From Patescibacteria group bacterium (GTDB lineage Bacteria > Patescibacteriota > Minisyncoccia > Phycocordibacterales > UBA9973), in the NCBI GenBank assembly GCA_038078255.1, contig JBBUEH010000013.1:1-41561 (forward strand): a stretch of DNA of 41,561 bases, in the 5' to 3' direction. The notes under the pieces are model-generated. The model saw nothing but the letters and a program-made list of their open reading frames with translations, was not told the DNA's origin and did no database searches. This document shows, in pieces, positions 336 to 34,162 of the stretch. The number at the start of each line of letters is the position of its first letter. Position 1 is the first letter of the stretch. A program made the translations under genes and the position numbers.

Positions 336-1160
336 ATGAAAGCAAAAAAATCTTTAGGGCTAAAAATTAAAAATAATTTCGCCCGGGCCAAAAAGGCTTT
401 AGGGCAAAATTTTTTAAAATCTGAATTGGCGCTCCGAAAGATTGTGGAAACAGGAGAAATAAAAAAAGATGATGTAATTCTAGAAATAGGGCCAGGGAAG
501 GGAGCCTTAACATCCAAGCTTTTAGCTTTTAGCTGTCAGGTTATAGCTATCGAGAAAGATAGAGAACTGATAACATTGCTGAAAGAAAAATTCAAGAAAG
601 AAATTGAAGAAAAAAGATTAAATTTAATACATGGTGATATTTTGGATTTTGATATAACTCAAATCGTTAGGCAAGACCTAACGATTTATAAGATTATTGC
701 CAATATTCCTTACAACATTACCGGAGCAATTTTGAAAAAATTCCTGACAGAAAAAAATCAGCCAGAGAGCATGGTCTTGATGGTCCAACATGAGGTGGCA
801 AAAAGAATCATGGCTCAAGATAAAAAAGAAAGCATGCTCTCTCTTTCGGTCAAAGCTTATGGAGAGCCTAAAATGATCATGAAGGTTCCAGCCCGATATT
901 TCTCCCCAGCACCAAAGGTGGACTCGGCTATTATCGCTATCAGAAATATTTCTCGAGAATTATTCATCACCCTAGAATTCGAAAAAAAATTCTGGGAAAT
1001 AGTCAGGGCAGGCTTTGCTCACAAAAGAAAAAAGCTTTCGAGCAACTTAAAAAACACTATTTCATGTCAAGGGGAGTCCTTGACATTTTTGGGAAACAAG
1101 AGGGCGGAGAATTTAACACTGGAAGACTGGATATTGCTTACTAAAGAATGTTATAATTAA
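336..1160 (+). CDS. rsmA: 16S rRNA dimethyladenosine transferase RsmA/KsgA
   Basis: 274 aa. KKALGQNFL signature, SAM-binding LEIGPGKGALT, NIPYNIT motif. Confidence 0.9.
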   Translation: MKAKKSLGLKIKNNFARAKKALGQNFLKSELALRKIVETGEIKKDDVILEIGPGKGALTSKLLAFSCQVIAIEKDRELITLLKEKFKKEIEEKRLNLIHGDILDFDITQIVRQDLTIYKIIANIPYNITGAILKKFLTEKNQPESMVLMVQHEVAKRIMAQDKKESMLSLSVKAYGEPKMIMKVPARYFSPAPKVDSAIIAIRNISRELFITLEFEKKFWEIVRAGFAHKRKKLSSNLKNTISCQGESLTFLGNKRAENLTLEDWILLTKECYN

Positions 1161-10918: not shown

Positions 10919-11938
10919 ATGAAGTTTAGACTTTTATCATTATATTTAGTTGTGATCCTTTCAGTCTTTGGAATAATTTTCTCGTTCAGTTTAAATAAAA
11001 TCAGGGCGGCTTCTTCGAGTAGTGTCTTGGTCAACATTGCGCCAGAAAATCCAGCCCCACATGAAGATGTCACTATTGATTTAAGTAGTTATGCTAATAA
11101 TTTAGACAGTGTTTCGATTCTTTGGTCTTTAAATGGCAGAAATGTTTTGTCTGGAATCGGTAAAAAGTCATTTTCTCTTACCGCCCCCGCCGCCGGAGAG
11201 GAAGCCATTATTACAGCCAATATTTCTTTCCCCGATGGTAATTTAGAAAAAAGAATAATCATCCGACCTTCCGTGATGGTGCTCCTCTCCCAGGCGACAG
11301 ATTCTTTCGTTCCACCATTCTATAGAGGGAAAGCTATGCCCACAGCAGACAGTGAAATTAAGATTGTTGCAATGCCAGAGATTAGCGCCTTAGGCTCTCC
11401 AGAGAGCCTAAGGCGCTCTTTGGTTGATCCAAAAAACATGACTTATGCCTGGAAGAAAGATTATACCAACAATCAAGAAGCGTCGGGTTATGGTAAAAAT
11501 TTTTTCATTTATACGAATGATTATTTAGAAGATTCAAATACTGTCTCAGTAGTAGCCTCGACAGTAGATCAGAAATATTCTTCTGAAGCAAACATTGAGG
11601 TGGGGGTAGCGGAGCCGAAAATTGTTTTCTATAAAAATGACAATGCGCTTGGAACAATTTGGGAAAGAGCTCTCTCTGATTCATATCGAATGGAAAATGC
11701 AGATATGATTGTGGAAGCGGCGCCTTATTTCATTTCACCTAAAGAATTACTGCATCCCTACCTGATCTGGACTTGGTCTATTAATGACACTGCCGTGCCT
11801 GTGCCAGACTTCAAGAAAAATTTCATGCCTCTGCGAATACAAAGCGGAACTTCTGGAACGGCCAAGCTCCGACTGGTTATCGAAAACATGGACAAAATTT
11901 TCCAAACGATGAGCAAAGAGGTGAATATAGAATTTTAA
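10919..11938 (+). CDS. Secreted/anchored hypothetical protein (beta-rich)
   Basis: 339 aa with N-terminal signal-anchor. No family recognised. Contains an in-frame 34-nt palindrome. Confidence 0.6.
   Translation: MKFRLLSLYLVVILSVFGIIFSFSLNKIRAASSSSVLVNIAPENPAPHEDVTIDLSSYANNLDSVSILWSLNGRNVLSGIGKKSFSLTAPAAGEEAIITANISFPDGNLEKRIIIRPSVMVLLSQATDSFVPPFYRGKAMPTADSEIKIVAMPEISALGSPESLRRSLVDPKNMTYAWKKDYTNNQEASGYGKNFFIYTNDYLEDSNTVSVVASTVDQKYSSEANIEVGVAEPKIVFYKNDNALGTIWERALSDSYRMENADMIVEAAPYFISPKELLHPYLIWTWSINDTAVPVPDFKKNFMPLRIQSGTSGTAKLRLVIENMDKIFQTMSKEVNIEF
11384..11417. repeat. 34-nt palindrome (16-bp perfect arms, 2-nt centre) in-frame inside a CDS
   Basis: agcgccttaggctctc ca gagagcctaaggcgct, checked base by base. 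Encodes ..SALGSPESLRR.. Confidence 0.9.
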
Positions 11939-14321: not shown

Positions 14322-14365
14322 AACTTGGAGGTTCTTCCTCCACTTGGAGGAAGAACCTCCAAGTT
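14322..14365. terminator. Bidirectional palindromic terminator (20-bp perfect arms, 4-nt loop) between convergent genes
   Basis: aacttggaggttcttcctcc actt ggaggaagaacctccaagtt. Overlaps the jag stop codon by 2 nt. Its 5' 25 nt recur at 18983-19007. Confidence 0.75.
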
Positions 14366-14861
14366 AAATACCAATATACTTGATCACTACCCGCCGACTC
14401 GATCCAAAACCAACAGATTCAGTCTGAAGATCGGTAGAATCAGATAAAAATTCATGCACCACTCGGCGCTCGAAGGCAGACATCGGATCGACTTCTATGT
14501 TTGATTTGAAATACCTCGCTCGCTCAGACATCATATGGGCTACCGCTCGAATGTTTTCTACTCTTTTTTTCTGAAAACCATTAATGTCAATCAAGAAAGA
14601 TCCTGCTTCGCCCCCAATGACGGTCTTAGGGGAATCCCCTAAGACCGTCATTGGGGTTTTCCCCTCAACTATCCTTCGCACCAGGTGGTTCAAAGCATAA
14701 AGCGCCTCACCGTCTTGCGAAATAAAAAAATGTGGTTCGTTCACTTCAATAGAGTACCAAGTATTCCCCCCATTTTCTTCTGAAATGGTGATTTTTTCTA
14801 ACGATACTCCTGTCTTCGCAATTAATTCCTGGATTAAATTTTGTATTTGTTCTTTGTCCAT
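14364..14861 (-). CDS. jag: Jag/KhpB-like RNA-binding protein (KH + R3H)
   Basis: 165 aa. R3H-type ERRVVHEFL...SxG..P.RRVVI end. Conserved position downstream of yidC. Confidence 0.8.
   Translation of the reverse strand: MDKEQIQNLIQELIAKTGVSLEKITISEENGGNTWYSIEVNEPHFFISQDGEALYALNHLVRRIVEGKTPMTVLGDSPKTVIGGEAGSFLIDINGFQKKRVENIRAVAHMMSERARYFKSNIEVDPMSAFERRVVHEFLSDSTDLQTESVGFGSSRRVVIKYIGI
14612..14656. repeat. 45-nt perfect palindrome (22-bp arms, 1-nt centre) in-frame inside jag
   Basis: ccccaatgacggtcttagggga a tcccctaagaccgtcattgggg, every pair checked. Encodes ..PMTVLGDSPKTVIGG.. Confidence 0.95.
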
Positions 14862-18982: not shown

Positions 18983-19007
18983 AACTTGGAGGTTCTTCCT
19001 CCAAGTT
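18983..19007. terminator. Bidirectional hairpin terminator (10-bp stem), same sequence family as 14322-14365
   Basis: aacttggagg ttctt cctccaagtt. Overlaps the stop codon of the minus-strand PBP gene by 2 nt. Confidence 0.7.
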
Positions 19008-23017: not shown

Positions 23018-23539
23018 CTAAAATTTTAAATACGCAAAGGCAGTCAAGGCTGTGGCGATAGCGTCTAATTCGTCATCAGATTTTTTAAAACTATCAATAT
23101 CGACGAGTATTTTCACCATTTTATTTATCTGTGTTTTGTCCGCTCGACCGTAGCCCGTGGTGGCTACTTTTATTTGTAAGGGTGTTGCTTCAAAGATAGA
23201 AAGTCCCGCTTGTACTCCCTCATAAATCACCACTCCGCGCGCTTCTGCCACTCTCATAACTGTCTTCTGATTTGTATTTAAAAATAAAGTTTCTATTGCC
23301 AGTACTTCTGGTTTGTATTCTTTGATTACCCTCTTTACTTCTTCGCCGATTAGTTTCAACCGTTCGGAGAATTCCAATTTACTAGAAGTTTTAAAACATT
23401 CAGAAAAAATAACTTTCTCTTTTTTTTGTCCAGCATAGGAGTTTCCTATGATGTCATAGGAAACTCCTATGCTGGGTTTTTCTAACACTGCTATTCCCAG
23501 TCTTTCAAAACCTGGATCAATGCCTAGAATTTTTGTCAT
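23018..23539 (-). CDS. ruvC: Holliday junction resolvase RuvC
   Basis: 173 aa. ILGIDPG..LGIAVLE N-terminus, AIETLF, DELDAIATAL C-terminal catalytic region. Carries an insertion of about 15 aa encoded by a palindrome. Confidence 0.9.
   Translation of the reverse strand: MTKILGIDPGFERLGIAVLEKPSIGVSYDIIGNSYAGQKKEKVIFSECFKTSSKLEFSERLKLIGEEVKRVIKEYKPEVLAIETLFLNTNQKTVMRVAEARGVVIYEGVQAGLSIFEATPLQIKVATTGYGRADKTQINKMVKILVDIDSFKKSDDELDAIATALTAFAYLKF
23430..23475. repeat. 46-nt palindrome (22-bp perfect arms, 2-nt centre) in-frame inside ruvC
   Basis: ccagcataggagtttcctatga tg tcataggaaactcctatgctgg, pairs checked. Encodes ..PSIGVSYDIIGNSYAG.. between the first beta-strands of RuvC. Confidence 0.95.
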
Positions 23540-23567
23540 GATTTTATTTTACCATGATTTTATTTTA

Positions 23568-23672
23568 TCTCCTCCTTATGGAGGAGGAGTGCCCCCCGAC
23601 ATAGGTCGGGGGCGAAGTGGTGATTAAAGAATTACCACCCCCAACCCCTCCTTGATGAAGGAGGGGAGGAAT
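23568..23672 (-). repeat. Multi-hairpin repeat element, copy B (intergenic, inverted relative to copy A)
   Basis: Its reverse complement aligns with 13253-13344. Hairpins: ctcctcc-ttat-ggaggag, gcccccgac-atag-gtcgggggc, ggtggtg-N13-taccacc, cccctcc-N8-ggagggg. Confidence 0.8.
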
Positions 23673-23678
23673 GCAGGA

Positions 23679-23687
23679 TGTGGATAA
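23679..23687 (-). promoter_or_regulatory. Perfect DnaA box (TTATCCACA on minus strand)
   Basis: tgtggataa at 23679-23687. Confidence 0.5.
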
Positions 23688-23715
23688 CTCATTTGCATAG
23701 ATAGATAGATATATT

Positions 23716-23980
23716 CTTTAAAAAGAAGATACACCCCACAGATGATCGTGGGGGTGTCGTAGTACACAAGGAACAAACACCATGAGAACGTACATCAAGT
23801 ACACCAACGGCCCCGGCAACGACAACACCGGCGCCCCTGCTCAAGTCGAATCTGCCGTTATCGGCGTGACGGTAGGCAGTGTCAACGGGACTCCTGCGAA
23901 GCCTTTGCATATCGGCGGGTGATCGACGCTGGGGGACCACCACCCCGGCAAGAAAGAGGGCGCACCCGGACGGGGGCCCT
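23716..23980 (-). ncRNA. Candidate structured RNA of unknown class (GC-rich islet); alternative reading is a 46-aa ORF on the plus strand at 23782-23922
   Basis: GC is 119/180 (66%) over 23801-23980 against 41/120 (34%) over 24001-24120, by hand count. On the minus strand a TAGAAT -10 sits at 23982-23987. A terminator hairpin acacccccac-N8-gtggggtgt plus U-run sits at 23716-23757. Several GC hairpins are present. No RNase P, tmRNA or SRP signature was found by eye. Confidence 0.3.
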
Positions 23981-24149
23981 CATTCTAAACAGTTTGTTCT
24001 TTCTGTCTGAAGAAACTAGTGAGTTTAACTCACAAACCGATAGATGCAAATCTATCCAGTGTCATTTCTGAAAAATGATATATCTTTCTTGACCTCTTTG
24101 AATCTCTTTGATTCATCGAGGTTTTTGTCTTTTTAGAGTAATTTCTATA

Positions 24150-24176
24150 CTTCCGCTAGGAAAGACCTAGCGGAAG
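24150..24176 (-). terminator. Perfect 11-bp hairpin abutting the ruvB stop codon
   Basis: cttccgctagg aaaga cctagcggaag. No clear U-tract, so terminator function is uncertain. Confidence 0.4.
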
Positions 24177-25193
24177 CTAGAGCAATTTCTCTTGACCTTT
24201 TTTGAAGTCGAACCCCAAATGCTCGTACGCTTTCTTGGTTGCCACTCTGCCCCGGGCAGTGCGTTCTAGTAGCCCGAGTTGGATCAAATATGGCTCGATC
24301 ACTTCTTCTACTGTAGCTTCTTCTTCGGACATGGCGGCGCCGATTGTTTTTAATCCCACTGGCCCGCCGTGAAACTTTTCGATCAATATTTCTAGAAATT
24401 TTCTATCGGAAGAGTTGAGTCCAAGGTCGTCGATGGCCAGCATGTTGAGCGCATCTTTCACTGTTTTTTGATCTAGACTTTTTTTATGCACTTGTCCGAA
24501 GTCTCGAACTCTTTTCAAAAAATAATTTGCCGTCCGAGGAGTGAAACGGCTTCGTTTAGCGATTTCTTCTAGAGCTTTATTGTCTAATTTTGCTTTCAAA
24601 AGTTTGCTGGAGCGAGCTACTATTTCGGCGATTTCATTTTCTGAATAAAATTCTAAACGAAAAACTCCTCCAGAGAATCTTGAACGAAGGGGAGAGGAAA
24701 CAAGCGCAACTCGAGTCGTGGCCGCTATTAAAGTAAAGGGGGGTAAGTCGAGCTGGATAGTCCGAGCCGATGGACCCTTGCCGATGATGATGTCAAGAAC
24801 GCCAGATTCCATCGCTGGATAGAGAATTTCTTCCACCATTTTATTCAGTCGGTGAATTTCGTCGATAAAAAGAATATCACCGGGAGATAAGTTGGTCAGG
24901 ATAGACGCCAAGTCGCCCACCTTCTCAATAGCGGGGCCGGAAGTTATTTTCATCTGGCGGCCTGTTTCTTTGGCGATCAGATGGGCGAGGGTAGTTTTCC
25001 CTAGTCCTGGGGGTCCGTAAAAAAGAACATGTTCGGGAATGTGCCCTCTTTCCTCGGCGGCTTGAAGAAGGATGCGGATATTGTCTTTGATATGTTTCTG
25101 GCCAATATATTCATCCCAAGCCTGAGGACGCAAGGTTTGATCTAGGAAAGAGTCATCAGCCTTTTCAGTTTTCGGGGTTGACTTTTTATTCAT
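24177..25193 (-). CDS. ruvB: Holliday junction branch-migration ATPase RuvB
   Basis: 338 aa. Walker A GPPGLGKTT, Walker B FIDEIHRL, typical C-terminal winged helix. Confidence 0.95.
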   Translation of the reverse strand: MNKKSTPKTEKADDSFLDQTLRPQAWDEYIGQKHIKDNIRILLQAAEERGHIPEHVLFYGPPGLGKTTLAHLIAKETGRQMKITSGPAIEKVGDLASILTNLSPGDILFIDEIHRLNKMVEEILYPAMESGVLDIIIGKGPSARTIQLDLPPFTLIAATTRVALVSSPLRSRFSGGVFRLEFYSENEIAEIVARSSKLLKAKLDNKALEEIAKRSRFTPRTANYFLKRVRDFGQVHKKSLDQKTVKDALNMLAIDDLGLNSSDRKFLEILIEKFHGGPVGLKTIGAAMSEEEATVEEVIEPYLIQLGLLERTARGRVATKKAYEHLGFDFKKGQEKLL

Positions 25194-27237: not shown

Positions 27238-29634
27238 ATGCTTAAAGAGGATATGCAAAAGAATAAAATCTTAGTTTTGCTCGATGCGCACGCTATTATT
27301 CACCGGGCGTATCATGCTCTGCCTGAGTTTTTGTCTTCCAAGGGCGAGCCTACGGGGGCCTTGTATGGGCTAGCAAGCATGCTGATGAAGATAATCACTG
27401 ATTTAAAGCCGGACTATATTGTGGCTTGTTATGATTTGCCGGGGAAGACATTTCGCCATGTTGCTTATGATGCCTATAAGGCAGGCAGAGTAAAGGCTGA
27501 TGATGCTCTAATAATGCAATTAAAAAAATCTCGTCAAATTTTCGAAGCCTTCAATATTTCTATGTATGACAGCCCGGGCTTCGAAGCAGATGATGTGTTG
27601 GGGACGATTGTAGAGAAATATAAAAAAGATAAAAACATAAATATAATTATTGCTTCTGGTGACATGGACACCATGCAATTAGTGGATGATAAAAAAGTGC
27701 AAGTCTATACTTTGAAGAAAGGCATTAATGAAACAATTTTATACGATGAAGAAAAAGTGGTGGAAAGATTTGGTTTTAAGCCAAAACTTTTGCCAGACTA
27801 TAAAGGACTTCGGGGCGATCCATCGGATAATATTGTTGGGATCAAGGGTATCGGAGAAAAAACGGCAACCATTCTAATAACTACTTTTGGAACTATTGAA
27901 GAAATTTATAAGACAATAAAAAAAGACGAAGAATCTTTTAAAAAAGTGGGTATTAGTCCACGAATAATGGAGTTGATAAAAAATAATGAAGAAGAAGCCT
28001 TGTTTTCAAAAACCTTAGCGACTATCCAGACTGATGCGCCCCTTAACTTTTCTTTGCCTGCTCAGTCGTTTTGGGAAACGGCGGACTTAAAAAAGATAGA
28101 AAAAGTTTTTGTTTTATTTGAATTTCGGTCTTTGTTTACAAGGCTGAAAAGTTTTTTTGGTTTAACAGTAGTGCCTAAAGCACTGGAACCTAGTGCTTTA
28201 GGCGCTACGGGAATAGATCCGCAAAAGCTCCAGGAAGCGAGTATCGCTCTTTGGCTTATCAATTCCGACATCTCCAATCCACAACTTGATGATATTTTAT
28301 TATTTGCGAATACCAGTGACTTTACTTCAGCCTCTGAATATATTTTCAAAACACTTCAAGAAAAAAATTTAGAAAAAATCTACAATGAGATAGAACGGCC
28401 GATAATGAACATTGTTAAAGAGATGGAAGATTATGGAATTTTAATAAACAAAAAATATTTTGAAAAATTATCTGGAGAGTATCATGATGAGCTAAATAAG
28501 TTAACAAAAAAAATTTACAAAATGGCTGAAGTAGAATTTAACATTAATTCCCCGAAACAGTTGGGCGAAGTGCTTTTTGATAAAATGGGAATAAAATCTC
28601 CCAATAAAAAAACAGCCAAGAAAAATGCAAGTGGCGGGTTTTCTACTAAAGTTTCAGTCTTAGAAGAATTGGAAGAGGAAAATCCAATTATCAAAGAAAT
28701 AATGGCTTACCGAGAATTGCAAAAGTTGCTTTCTACTTATGTTGATGTTATTCCAAGCATGGCGGGTGTGGACGGTAGGCTTCACGCAAAGTTTTTACAA
28801 AATGCCACCACGACAGGCAGATTTTCTTCACAAGATCCAAATTTACAAAATTTACCGATCAAAACAGAACTAGGTAAAAGAATTCGAGGGGGATTTATTG
28901 CTCAGGAGGGGTCTAAACTTTGTGCTTTTGATTATAGTCAGATTGAATTGCGAGTAGCGGCGATGCTCTCGGGAGACAAGAAGATGACGCAGATTTTTCG
29001 CGATAAAAAGGATATTCATGCTGGAGTGGCGTCTTTTGTGTTTGGTGTACCGCTAGAAAAAGTGGATAGCGAAATGCGTCGCCAAGCAAAAGTGATAAAC
29101 TTTGGCATTATTTATGGCATGGGGGTTACAGCTTTGCGGAAAAATCTTGGTGGTACCAGAGAAGAAGCGCAAAAGTTTTATGATAATTATTTTAGTCAAT
29201 TTTCTGGAGTGCGAGATTATTTAGAAAAAGTCAAAGCTTTTACTCTAAAGAATTTTTACACAGAGACTTTATTTGGTCGCCGGAGAAATTTCCCCAATAT
29301 AAATTCCAGAATTCCATTTTTGAAAAACATGGCGGAACGAACCGCTACCAATGCGCCTATCCAAGGGACAGCTACGGCGGACATTATTAAGCTGGCGATA
29401 CGATATGCGGAGGAAGATTTGAGAAATATAAATTTGTTAGACAAAGTACATCTCGTACTTCAGATTCACGATGAACTGGTATATGAAATAGAAAAAGAGG
29501 TATTGGGAAAAGCCGAAAAGATAATAAAAAGTGCCATGGAGGGTGTCCTGGAGCGGTCGTATTTGCATTATAAAACCGATATTCCGCTTGAAGTACATTT
29601 TGGTTCGGGTGATAATTTCGGAGAAGTGAAGTAG
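27238..29634 (+). CDS. polA: DNA polymerase I
   Basis: 798 aa. 5' nuclease domain (GIKGIGEKTA H3TH). Pol motifs A DYSQIELR, B RRQAKVINFGIIYG, C QIHDE. Confidence 0.95.
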   Translation: MLKEDMQKNKILVLLDAHAIIHRAYHALPEFLSSKGEPTGALYGLASMLMKIITDLKPDYIVACYDLPGKTFRHVAYDAYKAGRVKADDALIMQLKKSRQIFEAFNISMYDSPGFEADDVLGTIVEKYKKDKNINIIIASGDMDTMQLVDDKKVQVYTLKKGINETILYDEEKVVERFGFKPKLLPDYKGLRGDPSDNIVGIKGIGEKTATILITTFGTIEEIYKTIKKDEESFKKVGISPRIMELIKNNEEEALFSKTLATIQTDAPLNFSLPAQSFWETADLKKIEKVFVLFEFRSLFTRLKSFFGLTVVPKALEPSALGATGIDPQKLQEASIALWLINSDISNPQLDDILLFANTSDFTSASEYIFKTLQEKNLEKIYNEIERPIMNIVKEMEDYGILINKKYFEKLSGEYHDELNKLTKKIYKMAEVEFNINSPKQLGEVLFDKMGIKSPNKKTAKKNASGGFSTKVSVLEELEEENPIIKEIMAYRELQKLLSTYVDVIPSMAGVDGRLHAKFLQNATTTGRFSSQDPNLQNLPIKTELGKRIRGGFIAQEGSKLCAFDYSQIELRVAAMLSGDKKMTQIFRDKKDIHAGVASFVFGVPLEKVDSEMRRQAKVINFGIIYGMGVTALRKNLGGTREEAQKFYDNYFSQFSGVRDYLEKVKAFTLKNFYTETLFGRRRNFPNINSRIPFLKNMAERTATNAPIQGTATADIIKLAIRYAEEDLRNINLLDKVHLVLQIHDELVYEIEKEVLGKAEKIIKSAMEGVLERSYLHYKTDIPLEVHFGSGDNFGEVK
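28173..28203. repeat. 31-nt inverted repeat (12-bp perfect arms, 7-nt spacer) in-frame in the polA inter-domain linker
   Basis: gcctaaagcact ggaacct agtgctttaggc. Encodes ..PKALEPSALG.. Confidence 0.85.
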
Positions 29635-33957: not shown

Positions 33958-34104
33958 ATGAGTGCAAACTCAAAAACAACCCTTCGTGGTCGTGATGCTG
34001 AAACTGGTGAATTCACTACTGTAGAGGAAGCACGACGTCATCCAAAGGATCGTGTCGTGGAAAGAGTTCCAAAACCTGGCTACGGGGACACAAAAGATAA
34101 ATAA
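33958..34104 (+). CDS. Small basic/acidic hypothetical protein (48 aa)
   Basis: Hand translation gives MSANSKTTLRGRDAETGEFTTVEEARRHPKDRVVERVPKPGYGDTKDK. Followed by a hairpin and terminator. Confidence 0.45.
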   Translation: MSANSKTTLRGRDAETGEFTTVEEARRHPKDRVVERVPKPGYGDTKDK

Positions 34105-34162
34105 TCTTAGGGCAACCTAAGATTATTATAAAAAACTGCCTAGAGGAAGGGGCGGTTTTTTT
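34103..34162 (+). terminator. 9-bp hairpin (aatcttagg gcaa cctaagatt) followed by a rho-independent-type terminator (aaaaactgcc N10 ggcggttttt)
   Basis: Stems checked by hand. T-run at 34156-34162. Confidence 0.6.

What the first reader, a model, noticed from the sequence alone, without database searches (positions are those of the whole stretch)
23430..23475. 46-nt palindrome encoding a 15-aa insertion in RuvC
Perfect 22-bp arms sit inside ruvC. The encoded SIGVSYDIIGNSYAG lies where canonical RuvC proteins have a short beta-hairpin turn after the first catalytic Asp strand, so it looks like an insertion. It is the same size class (45-46 nt) as the jag palindrome but has a different sequence. 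This suggests a mechanism that generates or tolerates hairpin insertions, rather than one repeat family copying itself.
Basis: partly seen in the sequence, partly recalled or inferred. Interest (0 to 1): 0.65.

Follow-up and report, generated by a model that had tools for sequence, protein, structure and literature searches.

The report
REP hairpin doublet inside ruvC
The 46-base palindrome in ruvC is two back-to-back inverted copies of a short mobile hairpin repeat (a REP element moved by a RAYT-type transposase) that landed in frame in a tolerant surface loop of the enzyme; this is a known kind of event, seen here for the first time in an ultra-small groundwater bacterium of the Candidate Phyla Radiation (CPR).

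Summary
A perfect 22+2+22 palindrome lies at 23430-23475 inside ruvC (minus strand). It encodes PSIGVSYDIIGNSYAG in the turn between strands 2 and 3 of RuvC, where most relatives have about 9 residues.

Each arm carries the 17-mer CATAGGAGTTTCCTATG, itself a 7-bp hairpin. This is the core of a about 21-nt repeat unit (TACATAGGA-GTT-TCCTATGTA). In low-GC Patescibacteria metagenome contigs the unit occurs as single copies and as inverted doublets, several per contig.

Inverted copies also flank a 211-213 aa HUH/Y1 transposase gene (Pfam Y1_Tnp; best NCBIfam match REP-associated tyrosine transposase). That gene sits between recR and rplU in at least 10 loci. So this is a REP/REPIN-RAYT-type repeat family, not a one-off hairpin.

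About a quarter of the copies lie deep inside long ORFs, almost always read as I-G-V/N-S-Y.

The ruvC doublet is shared by three lineages. Its stems are identical even at synonymous sites, while the rest of ruvC is 45-64% identical at third codon positions. The same RuvC turn carries unrelated hairpin inserts in other Nomurabacteria.

No RAYT gene lies in the window. Intragenic REP dimers in repair genes were described in 2013, so this is a new member of a known kind.

The parts
23430..23475 (.). 46-nt perfect palindrome (22+2+22), an inverted doublet of a REP-like hairpin unit (REPIN-like)
23434..23450 (+). REP core copy 1, CATAGGAGTTTCCTATG. It is itself a hairpin: CATAGGA-GTT-TCCTATG
   Evidence: The same 17-mer is the core of the dispersed family
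23455..23471 (-). REP core copy 2, the same 17-mer on the minus strand (on the plus strand its loop reads AAC)
23451..23454 (.). 4-nt spacer between the two cores. On the ruvC sense strand it reads ACAT here, CTGT in a 99% identical strain, and ACTC in two more distant lineages
23429..23476 (-). ruvC codons 22-37 (PSIGVSYDIIGNSYAG), the inserted peptide in the turn between strands 2 and 3
23018..23539 (-). ruvC coding sequence (173 aa), host gene of the insertion
661..687 (.). Second hairpin family (..TAGG-CAAGA-CCTA..), here inside the rsmA/ksgA-like gene. The same core occurs in L111, L124, L151 and L079 (doublets), in the ruvB of L201, and in the RuvC turn of L006/L023
24150..24176 (.). Variant of the second family (CTAGG-AAAGA-CCTAG), directly after the ruvB stop codon
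14322..14365 (.). Third hairpin family as an inverted doublet (unit AACTTGGAGG-TTCTT-CCTCCA), between convergent genes. A single unit is at 18983-19007. In the source metagenomes it appears as high-depth short unitigs
14612..14656 (.). The jag palindrome (22+1+22), an inverted doublet of an imperfect hairpin unit of about 21 nt, in the Jag linker. It has the same build as the ruvC palindrome but belongs to a different family

Best explanation
The palindrome is a REPIN-like inverted doublet of a short REP-type hairpin repeat, with unit about TACATAGGA-GTT-TCCTATGTA (21 nt).

Repeats of this kind are non-autonomous. They are thought to be moved as single-stranded hairpins by a REP-associated tyrosine (HUH/Y1) transposase, RAYT. 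The RAYT gene is itself flanked by inverted copies of its own repeat.

In an ancestor of the window's organism and two sister lineages, a doublet of about 42 nt entered ruvC in the codons of the turn between strands 2 and 3.

Three things let the gene stay open and functional, so the insert was inherited vertically:
- The unit is a multiple of three bases.
- The reading phase gives I-G-V-S-Y ... I-G-N-S-Y with no stop codon.
- The turn is a surface loop.

Later, the two arms were extended to 21-22 perfect base pairs and the spacer changed quickly. This probably happened by hairpin-templated (quasipalindrome) correction.

Shown: the identity of the arms with the repeat family; the family's association with the transposase gene; the shared insertion in three lineages; the loop position.

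Inferred: mobilisation by the transposase; the single ancestral insertion; the templated correction.
For: 1. Each arm contains the exact 17-mer CATAGGAGTTTCCTATG.

The raw count could be near chance for so large a collection, so the context is what counts:
- In contigs with GC below 46%, 44 of 103 unique copies have the flanks TA..TA, so the stem extends to 9 bp.
- Many copies are inverted doublets with 0-8 nt spacers (L093, L095, L106, L110, L111, L144, L155, L167).
- Several contigs carry 3-4 copies.

3. Inverted copies 670-730 bp apart flank a 211-213 aa gene.
- It scores Pfam Y1_Tnp at 35 bits against a cut-off of 23.
- Its best NCBIfam match is REP-associated tyrosine transposase.
- It has an HUH motif (PNHFH) and a YSYIHLNP tyrosine motif.
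- Its best match among solved structures is E. coli TnpA-REP, 4ER8.
- At least 17 of the loci found by the 17-mer carry this gene.
- It lies between recR and rplU in at least 10 loci.
- The family is very large in Nomurabacteria and Paceibacterota, and one member is named RayT by JGI.

4. More distant transposase homologues (about 50% and 35% identity) are flanked by different hairpins: L027, L053 and L058 right upstream of ruvC, and L201. This is the transposase/repeat co-variation expected of REP-RAYT pairs.

5. 27 of 103 copies lie deep inside ORFs of at least 200 aa. 24 of them are read as IG[VN]SY against 3 in the other open phase. That is roughly 14 independent events against 1.

6. The ruvC doublet is shared by the window, L201 and L204. 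All 10 stem codons are identical in every pair, while third positions elsewhere in ruvC are 45-64% identical.

7. A presence/absence case between near relatives shows that such hairpins enter genes in frame: L201 ruvB has a 15-nt family-B hairpin ('SVRQD') that the window's ruvB lacks.

8. High-depth 36-40 nt unitigs of the doublet occur in the source metagenomes.

9. Intragenic REP dimers in repair genes are documented elsewhere (PMC3733652).
Against: - No RAYT gene and no other copy of this family lies in the 41.5-kb window. So it is not shown that this genome has the cognate transposase or many copies.
- The closest relative's contig (L201) has a RAYT-like gene 7 kb from ruvC, but that gene is flanked by a different hairpin.
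- The unit lacks the GTAG or CGTC tag of classical REPs.
- The transposase scores below NCBIfam's curated RAYT cut-off (41 against 80 bits), and the 4ER8 match is weak (E = 0.08).
- An old, fixed copy of a selfish repeat should decay. Complete conservation of the stems in three lineages is not explained by mobility alone.
- No empty site in a sister lineage pins down the exact insertion borders.
Confidence: 0.8

Rival explanations
1. De novo hairpin generation. Replication template switching or inverted duplication created the palindrome on the spot from local sequence, without any repeat family.
For: - In the window and its 99% strain L205 the arms are 3 bp longer on the outside than in L201 and L204, together with a 3-nt insertion (CCAGC..GCTGG against CTAGC..GCGAA). 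The window alone has one further inner pair.
- The 4-nt spacer differs at 3 of 4 positions between 99% identical strains.
- The loops of other inserts are flipped between lineages (caaga in L006 against tcttg in L023).
- The jag palindrome stays perfect in the window and in L207 despite 4 paired differences.
These points show that a symmetry-maintaining process acts on the palindromes.
Against: - The 17-nt core of each arm is identical to a repeat found in unrelated genes, in intergenic DNA, and flanking a transposase gene.
- Template switching cannot produce the same 17-mer at dozens of unrelated sites.
- No local source sequence exists in ruvC of relatives that lack the insert.
So template switching can explain the polishing of the arms but not their origin.
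Confidence: 0.05
2. Host-selected structural element. The hairpin, as DNA cruciform or mRNA stem-loop, is kept because it does something for the cell, such as tuning ruvC expression or marking sites for a DNA transaction. The link to the transposase would then be secondary.
For: - All synonymous sites of the 10 stem codons are conserved in three lineages, against 45-64% third-position identity elsewhere in ruvC.
- The exact 17-mer also persists at orthologous coding sites of other genes whose flanks have diverged: L083/L103/L147/L198, L107/L135/L165 and L091/L137/L168.
- The RNA fold is very strong (-39 kcal/mol, z = -11.5).
Against: - Most Nomurabacteria RuvC genes have no insert or unrelated ones, so no ruvC-specific function is needed.
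- The other orthologous sets were found by exact 17-mer match, so they are biased towards conserved copies.
- The window holds only one doublet in 41.5 kb, too sparse for an uptake-signal or chromosome-organising role.
- No test of function was possible.
Confidence: 0.1
3. Protein-level adaptation. The extra IGVSY-D-x-IGNSY peptide lengthens the beta hairpin of RuvC for a functional reason, and the DNA symmetry is a by-product.
For: - There is a strong reading-phase bias of intragenic copies towards I-G-V/N-S-Y.
- The model shows a small beta bridge within the insert (res 27-28 and 34-35).
Against: - The same peptide unit is inserted in many unrelated proteins.
- The insert is modelled with low confidence.
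- Other lineages carry unrelated peptides or none at the same site.
- Synonymous sites are conserved too, which selection on the protein does not explain.
The phase bias is better read as a filter for harmless peptides.
Confidence: 0.04
4. Assembly or amplification artefact (an inverted chimera).
For: None found.
Against: - Identical sequence occurs in contigs of independent runs from three studies.
- The same insert occurs in independent NCBI, ENA and Logan assemblies of relatives.
- The reading frame is preserved.
Confidence: 0.01

Closest known systems
REP / REPIN - RAYT systems (E. coli, Pseudomonas, Stenotrophomonas; Nunvar 2010, Bertels & Rainey 2011 PMC3116915, Ton-Hoang 2012, Messing 2012 PDB 4ER8)
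   Same: - A short hairpin repeat occurs as single copies and as inverted doublets.
- Copies are dispersed.
- A Y1/HUH transposase gene is flanked by inverted copies of its own repeat.
- That gene sits at a conserved chromosomal position.
- Different transposase variants go with different hairpins.
   Different: - There is no GTAG or CGTC tag.
- The unit is AT-rich and only about 21 nt long.
- Doublets are tight (0-8 nt spacer), not tens of bases apart.
- The transposase is longer (about 211 aa) and scores below NCBIfam's RAYT cut-off.
- About a quarter of the copies are inside genes.
- The hosts are Patescibacteria (CPR). The paper library holds no paper that mentions RAYT together with these taxa.
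Intragenic REPs (Di Nocera et al. 2013, PMC3733652)
   Same: - REP dimers are inserted in frame in genes, and many of those genes act in DNA replication and repair.
- More than half of those inserts are dimers or groups that encode 20-30 aa.
- The inserts are judged to be tolerated rather than functional.
   Different: - Those are GTAG- or CGTC-tagged, GC-rich REPs of Proteobacteria, Opitutus and others.
- Here the family is different, the phylum is different, and a single reading phase dominates.
- RuvC did not appear among the genes named in the passages I read.
Rickettsia palindromic elements (RPE; Ogata et al. 2000, as cited in PMC3733652)
   Same: Palindromic repeats are inserted in frame into housekeeping genes of a reduced genome, in surface-exposed parts of the proteins.
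   Different: - From my own knowledge, most RPE families are about 100-150 bp.
- There is no sequence relation.
- No flanked transposase gene is known for them.
IS200/IS605 insertion sequences and their palindrome-associated derivatives
   Same: - The transposase has the same fold family (Pfam Y1_Tnp).
- It recognises subterminal hairpins on single-stranded DNA.
   Different: - Here the transposase gene sits at one conserved locus (recR-rplU).
- It has no tnpB partner in the loci seen.
- The repeat that spreads is the bare hairpin, not the gene.
Quasipalindrome template-switch mutation (Ripley 1982; Lovett laboratory)
   Same: It explains how imperfect inverted repeats become perfect and how loops or spacers flip. 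This fits the outer arm extension seen in the window and its 99% strain, the spacer changes, and the co-varying jag arms.
   Different: It is a mutational process acting on an existing inverted repeat. It does not explain the origin or spread of the unit.

Membership tests
REP/REPIN-RAYT system | Short (about 20-40 nt) palindromic unit able to form a stem-loop | tested here: met
   The consensus is aTA-CATAGGA-GTT-TCCTATG-TAt, with a 7-9 bp stem and a 3-nt loop. There is no conservation beyond +/-3 nt.
REP/REPIN-RAYT system | Many dispersed copies within one genome | tested here: inconclusive
   Several contigs of related organisms carry 3-4 copies. One 80-kb contig appears under L095, L103 and L154, and there are also L182, L183 and L187. 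High-depth unitigs occur in the source metagenomes. The window itself holds only this one doublet in 41.5 kb, and the whole genome was not available.
REP/REPIN-RAYT system | Inverted doublets (REPIN) as a common arrangement | tested here: met
   Doublets with 0-8 nt spacers occur in L093, L095, L106, L110, L111, L144, L155, L167, L138, L139 and L183, and in ruvC of the window, L201, L204 and L205.
REP/REPIN-RAYT system | A Y1/HUH transposase (RAYT) gene flanked by inverted copies of the repeat | tested here: met
   Met in related contigs only. L094, L195, L196, L185, L183, L111 and others carry a 211-213 aa gene flanked within about 25 nt by inverted units. It scores Pfam Y1_Tnp at 35 bits against a cut-off of 23. 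No such gene lies in the window.
REP/REPIN-RAYT system | The transposase belongs to the RAYT subfamily rather than IS200 TnpA | tested here: inconclusive
   The best NCBIfam match is NF047646, REP-associated tyrosine transposase, but at 41 bits against a cut-off of 80. The best solved structure by profile is 4ER8 TnpA-REP, at E = 0.08, just ahead of ISDra2 TnpA. The YxYIHxNP tyrosine motif aligns with YIYINP of 4ER8. JGI names one member RayT.
REP/REPIN-RAYT system | Transposase gene at a conserved locus, vertically inherited and typically single copy | tested here: inconclusive
   The gene lies between recR and rplU in at least 10 loci whose flanking genes are 67-87% identical. Copy number per genome could not be tested.
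REP/REPIN-RAYT system | Conserved GTAG (or CGTC) tetranucleotide at one end of the unit | tested here: not met
   The unit reads TACATAGGA..; the stem holds ATAG, not GTAG, and there is no CGTC. The feature is as defined in PMC3733652.
REP/REPIN-RAYT system | Extragenic location | tested here: not met
   This copy is inside ruvC. 27 of 103 unique copies lie deep inside ORFs of at least 200 aa. Intragenic REPs are, however, documented exceptions.
REP/REPIN-RAYT system | The transposase binds and cleaves the single-stranded repeat | not testable with these tools
   This needs biochemistry.
RuvC Holliday-junction resolvase (host gene) | RuvC fold and conserved acidic catalytic residues | tested here: met
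   PF02075 is precomputed on all homologues. D8, E67/E83 and D155/D156 are invariant or nearly so in alignment A1. Which of these are the catalytic residues was not mapped onto a solved structure. The model has pLDDT 88 and TM 0.8-0.9 to 7XHJ, 4EP4 and 1HJR.
Rickettsia palindromic elements (RPE) | Repeat families of Rickettsia, most about 100-150 bp, inserted in frame | tested here: not met
   The unit here is 21 nt (42-46 nt as a doublet) and the host is a patescibacterium. Only the in-frame, surface-loop behaviour is shared. The RPE size is from my own knowledge; the RPE description is in PMC3733652.

The most novel reading that the evidence does not exclude
In these streamlined CPR genomes, the REP-type hairpins inside genes may not be passive passengers. 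Their stems are held at the nucleotide level across species, and the two arms of a doublet co-evolve. This would mean one of two things. Either there is a host-level function for the hairpin-transposase pair, for example as structured DNA or RNA sites. Or an active homogenising process operates, such as transposase-dependent or hairpin-templated conversion. In either case the system would act as a regular source of short beta-hairpin insertions in the surface loops of housekeeping proteins, with RuvC and Jag as recurrent acceptor sites.
Probability: 0.2. Interest if true: 0.7.

Novelty: new member of a known kind. Interest (0 to 1): 0.5.

Why it matters
- It turns an odd palindrome into a recognisable object: a REP doublet in a gene.
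- It shows that REP/RAYT-type repeat systems, studied almost only in Proteobacteria, are widespread in Nomurabacteria and Paceibacterota, where little intergenic space is left.
- There the hairpins often sit inside genes in one tolerated reading phase. This explains part of the loop-length variation of CPR proteins and warns annotators and structure modellers about such inserts.
- The complete conservation of the stems at orthologous sites bears on an open question: are REP-RAYT systems selfish, domesticated or useful?

Tried and rejected
- **Rfam.** A scan of the window at gathering thresholds found only two tRNAs. A permissive scan of 23500-24200 gave only a meaningless miRNA-like hit on the GC-rich hairpins.
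- **RAYT in the window.** tblastn with both RAYT variants found nothing. recR and rplU, the usual neighbours of the RAYT gene, are also absent, so whether this genome has the transposase stays open.
- **PDB search.** A single-sequence search with the transposase gave nothing useful. Only the profile search reached 4ER8, and weakly.
- **Raw hit count.** I considered using the number of 17-mer hits as evidence and rejected it. For a collection of 241 million records the chance expectation may be of the same order. The 21 hits in high-GC contigs look like unrelated or chance matches; several share one conserved upstream region with unrelated flanks.
- **Uptake-signal-like role.** Rejected because the family is too sparse in the window (one site in 41.5 kb).
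- **Other window palindromes.** blastn-short of the palindromes at 11384, 14612, 28173 and 34100 against the 1.2 Mb of held loci found no relatives. Their family status is therefore open, except for jag, which was resolved through protein homologues.

Full report
**1. The observation**

The window carries a perfect inverted repeat at 23430-23475. The arms are CCAGCATAGGAGTTTCCTATGA and TCATAGGAAACTCCTATGCTGG, 22 nt each, with 2 nt between them.

In 100 first-order Markov simulations of the window, no perfect arm exceeded 14 nt. On average 0.83 hairpins had arms of at least 10 nt, against 9 observed.

The palindrome lies in the 173-aa ORF 23018..23539 on the minus strand. All strong homologues of this ORF are RuvC (PF02075) of Candidatus Nomurabacteria and Paceibacterota, that is, Patescibacteria/CPR.

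Read on the sense strand it encodes residues 22-37, PSIGVSYDIIGNSYAG.

Contigs from independent groundwater metagenome runs of 2019, 2021 and 2025 reproduce the region without a single difference. It is therefore not an assembly artefact.

**2. It is an insertion in a surface turn that is a hot spot**

In an alignment of 41 RuvC proteins the rest of the protein is about 80% conserved. The stretch between 'LEK' and 'KE.VIFS' varies from 0 to about 28 residues.

Across 80 genome loci and 120 database proteins, the commonest state is 9 residues (KNKGDKKEK) and the shortest is 6.

An AlphaFold model (pLDDT 88, pTM 0.85) places residues 21-40 between strand 13-20 and strand 41-50, with pLDDT about 55. 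The model superposes on solved RuvC structures at TM 0.8-0.9.

Other lineages carry unrelated inserts at the same place, and several are perfect DNA hairpins:
- ACCCCGTCGTTCGCGAACGACGGGGT in L017, and the same with a paired T>C / A>G change in L062.
- CCCCTGAGG-caaga-CCTCAGGGG in L006, and the same stem with the loop flipped (tcttg) in L023.
- ACGGAGGC-aac-GCCTCCGT in L066.
- Two short hairpins in L004.

**3. The arms are copies of a dispersed repeat**

Each arm is itself a small hairpin, CATAGGA-GTT-TCCTATG.

The raw number is not evidence, because chance could give a similar order of magnitude in so large a collection. The 21 hits in high-GC contigs look like unrelated or chance matches; several share one conserved upstream region with unrelated flanks.

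The context in the 103 unique low-GC copies is decisive:
- 44 have TA on both sides, which extends the stem. Conservation stops 3 nt outside the core, so the unit is about TACATAGGA-GTT-TCCTATGTA, 21 nt.
- Many are inverted doublets with 0-8 nt spacers.
- Several contigs hold three or four copies.
- In the source metagenomes the doublet appears as 36-40 nt unitigs at two to four times the depth of the window's contig.

**4. The repeat flanks a RAYT-type transposase gene**

Inverted copies 670-730 bp apart enclose a 211-213 aa gene.
- It matches Pfam Y1_Tnp above the gathering score.
- Its best NCBIfam match is the REP-associated tyrosine transposase, though below the curated cut-off.
- It has an HUH motif (PNHFH) and a YSYIHLNP tyrosine motif.
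- As a profile, its best solved relative is E. coli TnpA-REP (4ER8), weakly at E = 0.08.
- At least 17 of the loci found by the 17-mer carry the gene.
- In at least 10 loci it lies between recR and rplU, whose products are only 67-87% identical between loci. This is the pattern of a vertically inherited gene at one locus.
- The family has thousands of members in Patescibacteria.

Homologues at about 50% identity sit directly upstream of ruvC in L027, L053 and L058. They are flanked by other hairpins: TACCAAGGG-ttc-CCCTTGGTA, and ATGTCAAGGTT-c-AACCTTGACAT.

The window's closest relative (L201, syntenic, 70-77% DNA identity) has a 35% identical homologue flanked by TGAGAGTCTAAAGCYCTCAC.

Transposase and hairpin therefore co-vary, as in REP-RAYT pairs.

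The window itself has no such gene.

**5. Behaviour inside genes**

27 of the 103 copies lie at least 20 codons inside ORFs of at least 200 aa. 24 of them are read as I-G-V/N-S-Y. Three are in the other open phase, and two of those three are second halves of 2-nt-spaced doublets. After orthologous sets are merged, this is about 14 independent events against 1.

A 21-nt unit keeps the downstream frame. One of its three phases has a stop codon (TAG). Of the two open phases, selection evidently favours one.

A clean presence/absence case exists for a second hairpin family (..TAGG-CAAGA-CCTA..). L201 ruvB has a 15-nt in-frame insert, 'SVRQD', which the window's ruvB lacks.

In-frame REP dimers in replication and repair genes were described for other phyla in 2013 (PMC3733652). 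I found no paper that links RAYT with CPR taxa.

**6. History of the ruvC copy**

The doublet is present at the same site in the window, in a 99% identical strain (L205), in L201 (82% protein identity) and in L204 (76%).

All ten stem codons are identical in every pair. Third positions elsewhere in ruvC are 49%, 45% and 64% identical.

The outermost pair is G-C in the window and L201 and A-T in L204, a paired difference.

Relative to L201 and L204, the window and L205 have three more outer pairs together with a 3-nt insertion. The window alone has one more inner pair.

The 4-nt spacer reads ACAT in the window, CTGT in L205 and ACTC in L201 and L204. So it differs at three of four positions between 99% identical strains.

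I read this as a single old insertion, followed by hairpin-templated polishing and fast change at the centre. The polishing is an inference with modest support.

The full conservation of the stems is not explained by mobility and remains open. It could reflect selection or homogenisation.

**7. The jag palindrome**

It is a doublet of an imperfect hairpin unit of about 21 nt, placed in the variable Jag linker.

Many Nomurabacteria Jag proteins encode matching palindromic peptides there. They occur in both arrangements (PMTVFGDSPKTVIG and PKTVIGDSPMTVFG), and there are also other families (HRSDLGESPRSDLW).

L207 has a perfect 22+1+22 palindrome at the same site. It differs from the window's at four positions per arm, and all the differences are paired.

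The common 45-46 nt size therefore reflects a common build: two units of about 21-22 nt plus a short spacer. No transposase link or high copy number was seen for this family.

**8. Verdict**

The palindrome is real and is an insertion in a RuvC surface turn. It is best explained as a REPIN-like doublet of a REP-type repeat tied to a RAYT-type transposase in related genomes (confidence 0.8).

It fails two textbook REP features: the GTAG tag and the extragenic location. The transposase is not shown in this genome. I therefore file it as working like a REP/REPIN, and as a new member of the known class of intragenic REP insertions.

It is kept as a plausible secondary process.

Noticed in passing
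window 23540-24176 (ruvB-ruvC spacer): The spacer is 637 nt here but 76 nt in the syntenic relative L201, and it ranges from 0 to 2585 nt across 80 Nomurabacteria loci. It is often GC-enriched, and in L027, L053 and L058 it holds a RAYT-type gene. It looks like a landing zone for mobile DNA.
   Followed up: partly
window 23567-23672: A GC-rich element of about 105 nt made of three hairpins: CTCCTCC..GGAGGAG, CGCCCCCGAC..GTCGGGGGCG and CCCCTCCTT..AAGGAGGGG. Homologues at 78-84% identity occur in L079 (1605-1709), L006 (2889-2982) and L014 (reverse strand). Partial matches with unrelated flanks occur in the source metagenomes. It is probably another small mobile element. There is no Rfam family for it.
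   Followed up: partly
window 23740-23990: A segment of roughly 60% GC (estimated by eye from the sequence) in a 38% GC genome. It holds a 46-aa ORF (23782..23922, plus strand: MRTYIKYTNGPGNDNTGAPAQVESAVIGVTVGSVNGTPAKPLHIGG). It has no homologue in the 1.2 Mb of loci held and is present in independent metagenome contigs. Its origin and function are unknown.
   Followed up: partly
window 14612-14656 (jag) and L207 (jag gene 301-795), L208, L209: The Jag linker is a second recurrent acceptor site. Many lineages carry palindromic doublets there, in both arrangements. The window and L207 each keep perfect 22-nt arms despite four paired differences, which suggests that the two arms evolve in concert.
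   Followed up: partly
window 661-687, 24150-24176; L201 9627-9645; L006/L023 3059-3081; L079 3781-3817; L124, L151: A second hairpin family has a conserved loop and closing pairs (..TAGG-CAAGA-CCTA..) but variable outer stems. It is found in the rsmA/ksgA-like gene of the window, after the ruvB stop codon, inside the ruvB of L201, in the RuvC turn of L006 and L023 (loop flipped between them), and as doublets elsewhere.
   Followed up: partly
window 14322-14365 and 18983-19007: A third family (AACTTGGAGG-TTCTT-CCTCCAAGTT) lies between convergent genes, once as a doublet and once as a single unit. It gives very high-depth short unitigs in the source metagenomes, and related hairpins (ACTTGGnGG..CCnCCAAGT) occur in L092, L104, L130, L144 and L181. 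These copies may double as bidirectional terminators.
   Followed up: partly
window 11384-11417, 28173-28203, 34100-34127: Three further perfect hairpins (arms 16, 12 and 12 nt). They lie in an unannotated 339-aa ORF, in the variable linker of polA, and in an intergenic region. No relatives were found in the held loci, so their family status is unknown.
   Followed up: partly
L085 around 646; L095 1481-1516; L155 700-735: Other proteins carry doublets of the same unit in frame. One is an MnmA-like protein, judged by its sequence motif, with 'YIGVSYVLVNTQETPMY' (L085). Doublets with a 2-nt spacer are read as IGVSYV-HRKLLC.
   Followed up: no
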